From a virus (taxonomy: Duplodnaviria; Heunggongvirae; Uroviricota; Caudoviricetes), in IMG/VR virus record IMGVR_UViG_2651869692_000004, positions 1 through 46,543 of that record: a DNA stretch of 46,543 nt; one strand, given 5' to 3'. Of the stretch, positions 24,001 through 27,000 are shown one piece after another. The position numbers were made by a program. Each line of letters opens with the position of its first letter. Positions within the stretch are counted from its first letter, which is position 1.

Positions 24001-27000
24001 TAAGCGCCTGCGGATCAACGCCACCTGCTCCGGTACCGTGCGTGAAGCCACCGGCACCTCCGGCGTGGATAATGCAACCGGCCCCCGACTGGCAGACACC
24101 GCTGAACGGGATTATTTCATCCTCAGAGAACGGCTGATGGCAATGCAGAAGCAACTGGAAGGAGCACAGGAATATATCCGTACCCAGTGTATACCGTGAT
24201 GTTTTGTTATGAAGGTGTTACTGGTAACGTTAAGGTAATTTAACAAAGAGTCAGTTCCGGACTTTATAGTGTGCTCAGTTCATGGCCAAAAACGATTTCT
24301 GTGATAAATATTTTGAATATTATTTACAGGTAAATGGAGTGGGGCACATGGATAGAAATATTACAATAGAGAATGAAGTATATGCCCGTATTGTATGGGC
24401 AGAGAAGGCAAAAACACGGTAATTCCGTGTGTTGCCATGATACCTGATTGGCAGAATAGTTGTTTGGTTTTGAGTATATAGTCAGCGTTTTTTGTTCAGT
24501 AATTGCTCCCTCAAAAAATAATAAAATAAGGTGATTATTTTTGTTTATTATTTAGTTTTTTTTGTGTGTTGTTTTATTGTTTTTGCGTGGTTTGTTTTTT
24601 ATTGTTATTTCATTAAGGGAAGGTAAATTCAGGATGGCAGTCTGTAGATAATCGGAGGTCACTTATGCTACATGATCACGTGGCAGAATGTCTGGAGAAA
24701 AAAGGACTGTACCGGAGAGCAGCTGAACGATGGGCAAAAGTGATGGTACAGCTAAGTGATGACCAGAAAAGAAAAGTGGCGGCACAGAAACGAGCAGAGT
24801 GTTTGCGTAAGGCGCGCCGGACTCCGGTTTCACCGGTGAACCTGACCGAAATAAAACAAGCGGTCAACAGACTACATTCTGAGTTGGGAATGGGATTTGA
24901 AGAGCGGCGGGTATTCCGACGATATAAAGGGACAGGAGAACAGAATACGTCCGGAAACGCGCGGTCAAAAAAATGCTAAAAAATATCTGAGAGAGTTATT
25001 GCCTGTTACCATAAGAAAAAGCGACTTTAGTGGTCGCTTTTTGTGTCATATATAAGTCGTTTAAGTAAACCTGTCTGAACAGGTGCTCTGGTCGTGTTTG
25101 TCTTTGTTGGGTACAAATTGAGAATATTTTTCATTAATTAATCTTCTTCTGCAGGCTTCAATAACCCACGCTGAAAAATTACCTGAACCTTTCAGGTCAA
25201 GAGCGATGTTAATTTGTTCAATTATCTGGTTTGGAAATCGGATGTTGCGGGTTGTTGTTCTGCGGGTTCTGTTCTTTGATGACATAATGTTGCCCCGTAT
25301 TCAGTGTTGCTGATTTGTATTATCTGAAGTTGCTTTTACGCTAATTTGATGCAGATCAATTAATACGATACCTGCGTAATAATTGATTATTTCTCGTGGT
25401 TTGATGGCGTACACACATGTCGTGATAAACCTCATGTAGATGATAATTATTATCATTTTCGTGGGTCCTTTCCGGCGATCCGACAGGTTACGGGGCGGCG
25501 ACCTCGCGGGTTTTCGCTATTTATGAAAATTTTCCGGGATCCATGTCCGGTTTCTCTTCAAGTTAACTATATGAAAAATATAAAAACAGGTCTTCTGTGA
25601 ACCGGACATGAACAAAAAACAGACATGTAAACCGGACATGACCGGTTTTGTTGTGATTGTGAGGTGAGAGTTTTTGCGAGGTGAGGAGTGGCTACGCAGA
25701 CTGAAGTTGCCAGGCATTTAAGTCTGACCGATCGCCAGCTTCGCAGATTGCAGAAATTGCCGGGTGCCCCGATATCGAATAAGCGAGGGCAACTGGATCT
25801 GGATGCCTGGCGCGATTTTTACATATCGTATCTGAGGAGAAGTAAAAACGATGTGCCTGATGGCGATAGCGAAGACGACTATGAGGAGAAATTGCTTATT
25901 GCCAGATGGGAACTGACAGCAGAACAGGCTGTTACACAGCAGTTAAAAAATGAGGTGTCAAAAGGAAAACTTATTGACACCGGGTTCTGTATTTTTGCCC
26001 TCAGTAAGCTGGCAATGGCGTTATCCAGTACGCTTGATTCCATCCCTTTATCCATGCAGCGACAGTTTCCTGATTTAACACCGCGCCATCTTGACCATCT
26101 GAAAACCCTTATTGCGAAGGGGGCAAATCAGTGTGCGCGGGCAGGGGATAAATTACCGGATTTACTCGATGAATATATCAGAGCAACAACTGAATAATAT
26201 GATGGCTGCCGTTTCGGTTGCGCTGCAGCCTCTGGTCAGGGTTGTACCAATGACGGCAGTTGAATGGGCTGATCAAAATTATTATCTGCCTAAAGAATCT
26301 TCATATGGTGAGGGAGAATGGAAAACGCTGCCATTCCAGATCGCCATTATGAACTGTATGGGTAACGACCAGGTTCGCACGGTTAACCTGATTAAATCTG
26401 CCCGTGTTGGCTATACAAAGATGTTGCTGGGGGTGGTCGGGTATTTTATTGAGCATAAATCCCGAAACAGTCTGCTTTTTCAGCCCACGGATTCTGCCGC
26501 TGAAGATTTTATGAAGTCTCACGTGGAGGCGACGATTCGGAACGTGCCATGCCTGAAAGACCTTTCCCCATGGCTGGGTCGTAAACATCGTGACAATACT
26601 CTCACGCTGAAACGCTTTTCATCGGGCGTCGGTTTCTGGTGCCTGGGCGGCGCTGCCGCCAAAAACTACCGTGAAAAATCCGTTGACGTGGTCTGCTATG
26701 ACGAACTTTCCTCGTTCGAGCCGGATGTCGAAAAAGAGGGCTCGCCAACCCTGCTGGGGGATAAGCGTATTGAGGGGTCGGTGTGGCCAAAATCCATTCG
26801 CGGCTCGACGCCTAAAATCAAAGGCACCTGCCAGATCGAAAAAGCCGCTAACGAGTCGGCGCATTTTATGCGTTTTTATGTGCCCTGCCCGCACTGTGGG
26901 GAGGCGCAGTATCTGAAATTTGGCGATGAGTCCACGCCTTTTGGGCTTAAATGGGAGAAGGACAGCCCCGAAAGTGTTTTCTACCTCTGTGAACATCATG

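What the first reader, a model, noticed from the sequence alone, without database searches (positions are those of the whole stretch)
25493..25646. Lambda-type cosN combined with divergent cosB repeats and a divergent small-terminase N-terminus
The cohesive-end sequence and its immediate flank match lambda as recalled, but the segment between cosN and nu1 carries CCGGACATG-type repeats (one inverted, two direct) instead of lambda-like R sites. The Nu1 N-terminal ~50 residues are also unlike lambda while the C-terminal half is lambda-like. This looks like a packaging-specificity swap of the phage 21 kind.
Basis: partly seen in the sequence, partly recalled or inferred. Interest (0 to 1): 0.45.

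Follow-up and report, generated by a model that had tools for sequence, protein, structure and literature searches.

The report
Lambda-type cos with a different cosB
This is the DNA-packaging site of a lambda-like E. coli prophage: its cutting site is identical to lambda's, but the neighbouring terminase-binding repeats and the DNA-binding head of the small terminase are of a different, common and apparently unstudied type, so it most likely has a packaging specificity of its own.

Summary
Window 25493-25504 is GGGCGGCGACCT, lambda's cohesive end. The window is 100% identical to lambda bp 1-45 and diverges from bp 46 on.

The repeats are real. CATGTCCGGTTT lies at 25542-25553, inverted AACCGGACATG at 25600-25610 and 25630-25640, and a fourth near-copy at 25637-25648 makes the last site a palindrome. 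The 11-mer occurs nowhere else in the 46.5 kb. The sites sit where lambda and phage 21 have R3, R2 and R1, with an IHF-like site at the I1 position.

Three comparative results support a cognate TerS/cosB pair:
- R sites are conserved while spacers vary.
- Helix residue 20 (Arg versus Asp/Asn/Ser/Thr/Lys) covaries with G versus T in the R site.
- In natural chimeras the DNA-binding domain and cosB are exchanged together.

The module is in 1149 of 5426 complete E. coli genomes.

Verdict: an ordinary lambda-type cos with a probable fourth, uncharacterised packaging specificity. It is a new member of a known kind. Nothing here was tested experimentally.

The parts
25463..25473 (+). cosQ region (GGGTCCTTTCC), the packaging-termination signal
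   Evidence: Identical to lambda and phage 21 at the same 30-bp distance from bp 1. Invariant in 43 distinct related cos sequences. Function taken from the lambda literature (PMC4669245).
25493..25504 (+). cosN cohesive-end sequence GGGCGGCGACCT (predicted 12-nt 5' overhang)
   Evidence: 12/12 identical to lambda bp 1-12. Invariant in the 43 aligned relatives; a few other loci read GGGCGTCGACCT. Cleavage itself was not tested.
25505..25537 (+). cosN-to-cosB spacer with the I2-type segment, identical to lambda bp 13-45
   Evidence: 100% identity to lambda bp 1-45. The phage 21 record annotates an I2 IHF site at the corresponding bp 30-44. The mosaic joint with lambda-like DNA lies at bp 45/46.
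25541..25554 (+). R3-equivalent TerS binding site (CCATGTCCGGTTTC; core 25542-25553 = bp 50-61)
   Evidence: Repeat family. Same place as R3 of lambda and 21 (bp 50-65). 0 of 14 positions vary in 16 ungapped relatives. The core (G/T)TCCGGTT starts at bp 52-55 in all 11 sequences of this class tabulated.
25564..25576 (-). I1-equivalent IHF-like site (TTTCATATAGTTA on the minus strand, bp 72-84)
   Evidence: It has 2 mismatches to WATCAANNNNTTR, so it is weak on its own. Eight of nine complex-cosB members of this class (window and 7 of 8 relatives) have a minus-strand site starting at bp 71-73, with perfect consensus in L100, L102 and L104; L108's best match is elsewhere (bp 82-83). Lambda and 21 have theirs at bp 74 on the minus strand. 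IHF binding is inferred.
25600..25611 (-). R2-equivalent site (AACCGGACATGA on +, inverted relative to R3; bp 108-119)
   Evidence: Exact inverted copy of R3. Lambda R2 is at bp 109-124 and phage 21 R2 at 107-122. The inverted core starts at bp 107-109 in all complex-cosB relatives.
25629..25648 (.). R1-equivalent site, a palindrome: inverted AAACCGGACATG (bp 137-148) overlapping direct CATGACCGGTTT (bp 145-156)
   Evidence: Orientation varies in relatives: inverted in L100 and L108, direct in L117, absent in the Salmonella and Citrobacter relatives. This fits an accessory role, as for lambda R1 (PMC4669245).
25688..26197 (+). terS, small terminase subunit (169 aa, GTG start): divergent N-terminal winged-HTH domain (about residues 1-55) plus Nu1-type C-terminal part
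26169..28097 (+). terL, large terminase subunit (642 aa), overlapping the end of terS by 29 nt
   Evidence: 66% identical to lambda gpA over 639 aa. Orthologues in relatives carry Pfam GpA_ATPase and GpA_nuclease.

Best explanation
This is the functional-type cos site of a lambda-like prophage. The window is in prophage order, from int through cos to J.

cosQ, cosN and the first 45 bp are lambda's. cosB belongs to a different sequence class: its R sites read (C/G)ATGTCCGGTT but keep the lambda/21 architecture in register, namely R3 (bp 50-61), an IHF-like site (bp 72-84), inverted R2 (bp 108-119) and R1 (bp 137-156).

Proposed mechanism, by analogy with lambda. The N-terminal MerR-like winged-HTH domains of a TerS dimer dock on R3 and R2, which an IHF bend at I1 brings together. 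R1 is accessory. The C-terminal part of TerS holds TerL (a gpA homologue), which nicks cosN 12 bp apart to give GGGCGGCGACCT 5' overhangs. cosQ plus cosN terminate packaging.

The R sites differ from lambda at the critical bp 56, 58 and 59 and from phage 21 at bp 56 and 59, and the recognition helix reads RQLRRLQK rather than RTIQNWQE (lambda) or RTIERWQS (21). The phage should therefore package its own kind of DNA and not lambda or 21 DNA, while sharing compatible cohesive ends.

Shown here: sequence identities, repeat positions, conservation, covariation, fold prediction and chimeras. Inferred: binding, IHF use, cleavage and specificity.
For: - Identity to lambda of cosN plus bp 1-45, and of the cosQ spacing.
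- The repeats are confined to cosB and lie at the positions of R3, R2 and R1 in lambda and 21.
- Conservation: R3 is invariant; R sites vary at 6/46 positions against 20/56 for spacers in 16 distinct ungapped relatives (Fisher p=0.012; the same picture in 43 sequences).
- IHF-type site on the minus strand starting at bp 71-73 in the window and 7 of 8 complex relatives of this class, perfect consensus in three of them; lambda and 21 have theirs at bp 74.
- Protein-DNA covariation: Arg at residue 20 goes with G in xGTCC(GG). This holds in the enterobacterial RQLRRL group, in L122 (RHLRRL) and in L255 (RQVQRL). Asp/Asn/Ser/Thr/Lys at residue 20 goes with xTTCCGG in most of the roughly 25 other helix variants, including Klebsiella, Salmonella, Aeromonas phiARM81ld and Pseudomonas LPPA33.
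- The varying base corresponds to bp 56 of lambda/21, a known specificity position (PMC4669245).
- DBD and cosB travel together: L010/L011, L116, L119 and L244 carry an N15/Monarch-type DBD with GGTTGTTGTT-type R sites on C-terminal halves 72-82% (L116, L119), 71% (L010/L011) and 77% (L244) identical to TerS of this class.
- Plaque-forming phages PhiR12_1 to _5 carry the same cosB and TerS (99.4% protein identity).
Against: - No experimental data: virion ends, TerS binding and IHF dependence are untested for this class.
- The window's own IHF-like site has 2 mismatches and is not significant alone.
- The R motif is 9/12 identical to phage 21's CATGTCGGnCCT, so overlap with 21 specificity cannot be excluded. 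N15 terminase packages lambda DNA despite a divergent system (PMC4669245).
- R3 lies 3 bp closer to cosN than the matching motif in lambda and 21, although lambda tolerates little change in this spacing.
- The covariation counts are not corrected for phylogeny. There are about three independent Arg lineages.
- The fold-search scores are moderate and rest on a predicted model.
Confidence: 0.8

Rival explanations
1. The packaging specificity is the same as phage 21. The repeats are only a drifted version of the 21 R sites, and the two terminases cross-package.
For: The R motif CATGTCCGGTTT is 9/12 identical to 21's CATGTCGG(G/A)CCT. The R3/R2/R1 layout is almost superimposable. Phage 21 has Arg at the residue that aligns with Arg20 here, and also has G at the covarying base. 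N15 gives a precedent for asymmetric cross-packaging (PMC4669245).
Against: The N-terminal domains show no BLASTP similarity. The recognition helices differ at most positions. Bp 56 and 59, which are critical in lambda and 21, read C and T here against G and G in 21 (PMC4669245). The R3 motif is shifted 3 bp.
Confidence: 0.12
2. It is a relic: the prophage is defective and the repeats are no longer used. Alternatively, they are binding sites for another regulator, or chance repeats.
For: Many copies of this module lie in decayed prophages, for example H31 with a frameshifted terL. No binding data exist.
Against: In the window, terS, terL and the ORFs at the W and portal positions (and the later head/tail ORFs) are uninterrupted. 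R sites are conserved against variable spacers across Escherichia, Klebsiella, Salmonella, Citrobacter and Enterobacter, always in register with cosN. Plaque-forming PhiR12 phages carry the same module. Chance is excluded by the clustering of all four matches within 107 bp.
Confidence: 0.05
3. It is a PICI-type hijacking cos, read by an Rpp-like protein that redirects a helper phage's terminase.
Against: The protein has a full Nu1-type C-terminal part (Pfam) and is followed by its own terL and head genes. PICI cosB regions have no repeated R sequences (PMC9026076). The window is a complete lambdoid prophage layout.
Confidence: 0.02

Closest known systems
Phage 21 cos and gp1 (TerS), the classic alternative packaging specificity to lambda
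   Same: cosQ and cosN identical to lambda. Tripartite cosB with R3, I1, inverted R2 and R1 at almost the same coordinates (R3 50-65, I1 72-86, R2 107-122, R1 150-165). R motif 9/12 identical (CATGTCGGnCCT against CATGTCCGGTTT). N-terminal wHTH plus C-terminal TerL-binding half. Specificity is carried by the cosB and DBD pair.
   Different: The TerS N-terminus has no BLASTP similarity to gp1, and Pfam Nu1 does not cover it. The C-terminal half is 40% identical. The R3 motif lies 3 bp closer to cosN. R1 is palindromic, and inverted in several relatives, rather than direct.
Lambda cos and gpNu1
   Different: R sites are unrelated at the critical bp 56, 58 and 59 (lambda CGTTTCCGTTCT). The recognition helix reads RQLRRLQK against RTIQNWQE. 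The wing is about 3 residues shorter.
N15 / Monarch packaging class
   Same: A third documented lambda-like specificity, with simple (R3-only) and complex (R3-I1-R2-R1) cosB forms. The class studied here also has both forms: complex in enterobacteria, and R3-only in phiARM81ld, LPPA33 and metagenomic relatives.
   Different: R sites are GAGGTTGTTGTT and the DBD begins MAVLLNKSDMASS. Natural chimeras show the two DBD+cosB cassettes replacing each other on the same TerS C-terminal half.
PICI cos / Rpp (Fillol-Salom 2019; Murialdo and Feiss 2022)
   Same: Lambda-like cosQ and cosN with a non-lambda cosB, read by a winged-HTH protein. RppC is the best structural match of the N-terminal domain.
   Different: Rpp lacks a TerL-binding part and needs the helper's TerS. 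PICI cosB has no repeated R sites. Here the protein is a complete TerS with its own terL.

Membership tests
Lambda-like cos site (cosQ-cosN-cosB) | 12-bp cohesive-end sequence closely matching lambda's | tested here: met
   GGGCGGCGACCT at 25493-25504, 12/12. Bp 1-45 are 100% identical to lambda.
Lambda-like cos site (cosQ-cosN-cosB) | Conserved cosQ element about 30 bp left of the nick site | tested here: met
   GGGTCCTTTCC starts 30 bp before bp 1, as in lambda and 21. It is invariant in 43 relatives.
Lambda-like cos site (cosQ-cosN-cosB) | Complex cosB: R3 near bp 50-65, IHF site, inverted R2, then R1, followed by terS and terL | tested here: met
   R3 at bp 50-61, IHF-like site at 72-84, R2 at 108-119, R1 at 137-156, terS from bp 196, terL overlapping. 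R1 orientation departs from lambda: it is palindromic or inverted.
Lambda-like cos site (cosQ-cosN-cosB) | Terminase cleavage giving 12-nt 5' cohesive ends on virion DNA | not testable with these tools
   No virion-end data. The phiARM81ld record starts with GGGCGTTAGACC, but how its ends were determined could not be checked.
Phage_Nu1 small terminase (Pfam PF07471) | Match to the family profile above the gathering score | tested here: met
   67.9 bits against a cut-off of 30, but only residues 49-150 against profile positions 62-163.
Phage_Nu1 small terminase (Pfam PF07471) | N-terminal winged-HTH DNA-binding domain of the Nu1 type | tested here: inconclusive
Phage 21 packaging specificity | R sites of type (T)CATGTCGGnCCT with R3 at bp 50-65 | tested here: not met
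   9/12 identity only. The R3 motif is offset by 3 bp. Bp 56/59 are C/T against G/G.
Phage 21 packaging specificity | gp1-type recognition helix (RTIERWQS) | tested here: not met
   The helix here is RQLRRLQK, and the N-termini have no BLASTP alignment.
Lambda packaging specificity | R sites CGTTTCC(G/T)TTCT and the Nu1 recognition helix | tested here: not met
N15/Monarch packaging specificity | R3 GAGGTTGTTGTT and a TerS N-terminus MAVLLNKSDMA... | tested here: not met
   Absent from the window. Present in the chimeric relatives L010, L116, L119 and L244.
PICI cos / Rpp system | An Rpp gene without a TerL-binding part, no terL next to it, and no repeated R sites | tested here: not met
   Full TerS with a Nu1 C-terminal part, adjacent terL and head genes, and three to four repeats.

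The most novel reading that the evidence does not exclude
This is a fourth lambda-like packaging specificity, after lambda, 21 and N15. It is the second most common class in E. coli, present in about 21% of complete genomes with up to five matching places (of any length) per genome. Its recognition code can be read partly from natural covariation: Arg20 of the recognition helix pairs with G, and Asp/Asn with T, at the R-site base that corresponds to lambda/21 bp 56. Because cosN is identical, phages of this class could exchange genome arms with lambda- and 21-type phages while remaining insulated in packaging initiation. Co-resident prophages of the class, as in EHEC, could package one another.
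Probability: 0.55. Interest if true: 0.45.

Novelty: new member of a known kind. Interest (0 to 1): 0.35.

Why it matters
The searched literature documents only three packaging specificities among lambda-like cos phages: lambda, 21 and N15 (PMC4669245). This module would add a fourth, and it is far from rare.

- It is in 1149 of 5426 complete E. coli genomes, against 650 for the 21 type and 3912 for the lambda type.
- It has relatives in Klebsiella, Salmonella, Citrobacter, Enterobacter, Aeromonas and Pseudomonas phages.
- It offers a natural series of helix and R-site variants for studying how TerS reads DNA.
- Natural DBD+cosB cassette exchanges show how specificity is reshuffled.
- It bears on which co-resident prophages, including EHEC prophages that carry virulence genes, can package each other's DNA.

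It does not change the accepted model of cos recognition.

Tried and rejected
- Chance repeats: rejected. All four matches lie within 107 bp and there are none elsewhere.
- Direct sequence homology of the N-terminus to solved TerS, Nu1 or Rpp chains: a profile search of PDB sequences found nothing. NCBIfam found nothing.
- A significant IHF consensus in the window: no match with up to 1 mismatch inside cosB. Only positional conservation across relatives supports I1.
- Literature: a search for the repeat sequence together with cosB found only unrelated p53 papers. Searches for the PhiR12 phages and for phiARM81ld end mapping found nothing usable.
- The genome-contig scan returned only 12 loci, and the first viral-contig scan returned 80 near-identical loci. 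Diversity had to be obtained through the look-up of encoding contigs and scans with divergent queries.
- PICI/Rpp reading: rejected on gene content.
- 'Lambda terminase with a swapped tip': rejected, because TerL is 66% and the TerS C-terminal half 46% identical to lambda.
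Full report
**What is at the coordinates**

Window 25493-25504 reads GGGCGGCGACCT, the lambda cohesive end. The window is 100% identical to lambda bp 1-45 (25493-25537). To the left, 25138-25492 is 86.5% identical to lambda's right end. GGGTCCTTTCC, the cosQ region, begins 30 bp before bp 1, exactly as in lambda and phage 21. From bp 46 on, DNA similarity to lambda stops. Only the ECOR-derived phages PhiR12_1 to _5 match through cosB and terS in the phage collection, at 96.6%.

**The repeats**

- CATGTCCGGTTT at 25542-25553.
- Its exact inverted copy AACCGGACATG at 25600-25610 and at 25630-25640.
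- A direct 11/12 copy, CATGACCGGTTT, at 25637-25648. It overlaps the last inverted copy, so the distal site is a near-perfect palindrome (AAACCGGACATGACCGGTTT).

With up to one mismatch the 11-mer has four matches in the whole 46.5-kb window. All four fall in this 107-bp stretch, where 0.79 matches are expected for the whole window.

**The downstream genes**

The next gene (25688-26197, GTG start, 169 aa) is the small terminase. Pfam Phage_Nu1 matches residues 49-150 only. BLASTP aligns residues 73-164 to lambda Nu1 at 46% and residues 64-166 to phage 21 gp1 at 40%. Nothing in the N-terminus aligns.

The overlapping gene (26169-28097) is a gpA-type large terminase, 66% identical to lambda's.

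The window as a whole is a lambdoid prophage in prophage order:
- int at the left end (76% to lambda).
- exo-bet-gam (97%) and O/P (93%).
- cos in the middle.
- head genes only 66-68% identical to lambda.
- tail genes H to J at 95%.

[quoted passage not shown] The whole terminase and head module is a separate lineage, joined to lambda-like DNA at bp 45/46.

**Anatomy in register with lambda and 21**

| Element | This window | Lambda | Phage 21 |
|---|---|---|---|
| R3 | 50-61 | 50-65 | 50-65 |
| IHF site (I1) | 72-84, minus strand | starts at 74, minus strand | starts at 74, minus strand (record annotates I1 at 72-86) |
| R2 (inverted) | 108-119 | 109-124 | 107-122 |
| R1 | 137-156 | 151-166 | 150-165 |

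- The window's IHF-like site is TTTCATATAGTTA, with two mismatches to WATCAANNNNTTR. Alone it is not significant.
- Eight of the nine complex-cosB members of this class that I tabulated (the window and 7 of 8 relatives) have a minus-strand site starting at bp 71-73. Three of them have a perfect consensus: Klebsiella L100, E. coli L102 and Salmonella L104. L108's best match lies elsewhere, at bp 82-83. Lambda and 21 have their own sites starting at bp 74 on the minus strand.
- The R3-I1-R2-R1 architecture is therefore kept while the R sequence is replaced.
- R1 is the variable part. It is palindromic here, inverted in L100 and L108, direct in L117, and absent in the Salmonella and Citrobacter relatives. 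This fits the accessory role reported for lambda R1 (PMC4669245).
- More distant relatives have only an R3-type site (CATTTCCGGTTCCGGTT and similar), with terS starting about 80 bp from the end. These include Aeromonas phage phiARM81ld, Pseudomonas phage LPPA33 and metagenomic contigs. This is the 'simple' cosB form known from N15 (PMC4669245).

**Evidence that the repeats are the cognate TerS sites**

1. Constraint. Among 43 distinct cos sequences of this type from IMG/VR, the following are nearly invariant: cosQ, cosN, R3, the A/T-rich middle, R2 and R1. The two spacers (25587-25598 and 25612-25629) are riddled with substitutions. In the 16 ungapped sequences, R sites vary at 6 of 46 positions and spacers at 20 of 56 (Fisher p=0.012). 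R3 varies at 0 of 14.

2. Covariation.
   - Relatives whose recognition helix reads ..RQLRRLQK.. have (C/G)ATGTCCGGTT. These are the window, Citrobacter, Enterobacter, Salmonella L109 and L111.
   - Relatives with ..R(R/W/Q)(L/V)R(D/N)LQK.. have CA(T/C)TTCCGGTT, with inverted copies AACCGGAA(A/G)T. These are Klebsiella, E. coli P0013 and Salmonella.
   - Two distant lineages that also have Arg at residue 20 again have GTC: L122 (RHLRRL) and L255 (RQVQRL).
   - Of the roughly 25 other helix variants, those with Asp, Asn, Ser or Thr at residue 20 have TTCC. The two Lys variants are split: L121 has TTCC, L015 has GCCGG. The most distant ones, which lack Arg16 (L127, L128, L131), have no CCGG motif at all.
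   - Aligned on the recognition helix, residue 20 here corresponds to residue 21 of lambda (Asn, site TTTCC) and of 21 (Arg, site TGTCGG). The varying base corresponds to bp 56, a known lambda/21 specificity position (PMC4669245).
   - The count is not corrected for phylogeny. There are about three independent Arg lineages.

4. Cassette exchange. Several loci encode TerS proteins whose C-terminal part is 71-82% identical to TerS of this class: L010/L011 71%, L116 82% and L119 72% to the Salmonella-type member P0022, and L244 77% to the distant member P0086. Their N-terminus is instead of the N15/Monarch type (MAVLLNKSDMASS...). In every case cosB then carries GGTTGTTGTT-type R sites, at the R3, R2 and R1 places in the complex forms and as a single R3 in L244. 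The DNA-binding domain and cosB therefore move together relative to the TerL-binding half. This is what a specificity swap predicts.

5. Function. PhiR12_1 to _5 are listed with K-12 or E. coli C as hosts. They carry the same R sites and a 99.4% identical TerS.

**Mechanism proposed (inferred from the lambda model; PMC4669245, PMC9026076)**

A TerS dimer docks its two recognition helices on R3 and R2 across an IHF-induced bend. This positions TerL to nick cosN. The cosB-bound complex then docks on the portal, and cosQ plus cosN end packaging at the next cos.

Bp 56, 58 and 59 read C, G and T here. They read T, C and C in lambda and G, C and G in 21. Neither heterologous terminase is therefore expected to start packaging here.

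Two points do not fit neatly:
- The R motif is 9/12 identical to 21's.
- The motif sits 3 bp closer to cosN than the corresponding motif of lambda and 21, although lambda is sensitive to 3-bp changes in this spacing.

**Distribution and novelty**

The 671-bp cosB+terS segment is found at 80% coverage or more in 1149 of 5426 complete E. coli genomes. A genome can hold up to five matching places of any length. The corresponding figures are 3912 genomes for the lambda type and 650 for the 21 type. Databases call the protein only 'terminase small subunit'.

The packaging papers I could read name three documented specificities: lambda, 21 and N15. They list phi80 and 434 as sharing lambda's specificity (PMC4669245, PMC9026076). 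Gifsy-1 TerS shares only the C-terminal part with this protein. A text search for the repeat with cosB found nothing relevant. I cannot exclude a description in subscription journals.

I rate this a new member of a known kind: an ordinary lambda-type cos with a probable fourth, uncharacterised specificity class. It is useful to the field but not surprising. The Feiss group explicitly expected more diversity.

**Rivals**

| Rival | Probability |
|---|---|
| Same specificity as phage 21 | about 0.12 |
| Relic or other function | about 0.05 |
| PICI-type hijacking cos | about 0.02 |

The evidence for and against each is given in its own section.

**Limits**

Nothing here measures binding, cleavage or packaging. 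The IHF site is supported only by position. The covariation and conservation statistics use recombining, related sequences. The fold evidence rests on predicted models with moderate confidence.

Noticed in passing
window 14247-15749 (-): A 500-aa protein with DUF4041 and T5orf172/MUG113 domains. It matches the PADLOC model PD-Lambda-1 over its full length (E=5e-198), so it is an anti-phage defence gene carried in the nin region of the prophage.
   Followed up: partly
window 7361-8314 (-) and 8376-9104 (-): A 317-aa protein with no Pfam hit matches the PADLOC candidate PDC-S42 (E=3e-86). It lies directly beside the cI-like repressor (HTH plus peptidase S24), the position where lambda carries rexAB.
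   Followed up: partly
window 12340-13887 (-): A 515-aa HD-domain protein next to PD-Lambda-1. It has only a marginal dGTPase-like PADLOC hit (E=9e-4). It may be another defence or cargo gene.
   Followed up: no
window 24665-24979 (+), 25061-25285 (-), 19670-21520 (+): A PerC/Pch-family regulator (Pfam E=4e-44) and a DUF3950/YlcI protein lie just left of cos. A DUF1737 plus sialate-O-acetylesterase (SASA) protein lies upstream of the lysis genes. This gene set suggested to me a prophage of a pathogenic E. coli, from my own recollection; that was not tested here.
   Followed up: no
window 25657-25668 and 25674-25685: A tandem 17-bp-spaced duplication of the terS ribosome-binding region (TTGTGAGGTGAG / TTGCGAGGTGAG). 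Some IMG/VR relatives carry a single copy.
   Followed up: partly
L095 (IMG/VR), around position 1437: A natural 30-bp deletion that exactly fuses the two direct AACCGGACATGA copies, leaving R3 plus one distal site. This is the kind of unequal crossover between R sites that Feiss proposed for the origin of N15's simple cosB (PMC4669245).
   Followed up: partly
L010/L011 (E. albertii, Escherichia sp.), L116, L119, L244: Chimeric small terminases. An N15/Monarch-type DNA-binding domain with GGTTGTTGTT R sites is joined, around residues 50-70, to C-terminal halves 71-82% identical to TerS of the class studied here.
   Followed up: yes
IMG/VR loci (for example the five that begin TTGCTGTAAGTGATAATTATTCTCG...): The DNA left of cosN is highly mosaic among carriers of this cosB. 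Five loci have the exact phage 21 right end joined to it, others a lambda-like or unrelated right end. The conserved cosQ-cosN-bp45 block therefore looks like a recombination joint.
   Followed up: partly
L031, L035, L099 (around position 1412): A variant in which the sequence after AAACCGGACAT, that is the direct half of the R1 palindrome and the leader, is replaced by unrelated DNA while TerS stays 99% identical. It suggests that the inverted half of R1 is the part that is kept.
   Followed up: no
L255 and L122 (IMG/VR): Distant TerS relatives with Arg at helix residue 20 have tandem GTGTC(G)/GTGTCCG repeats at the R3 place. The L255 site (CGTGTCGTGTC) resembles phage 21's R3 (CGTGTCGG).
   Followed up: no
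E. coli genome collection: Prevalence of cosB+terS modules in 5426 complete genomes, at 80% coverage or more: lambda type 3912, this type 1149, 21 type 650. A genome can hold up to 5 matching places (of any length) for this type.
   Followed up: yes
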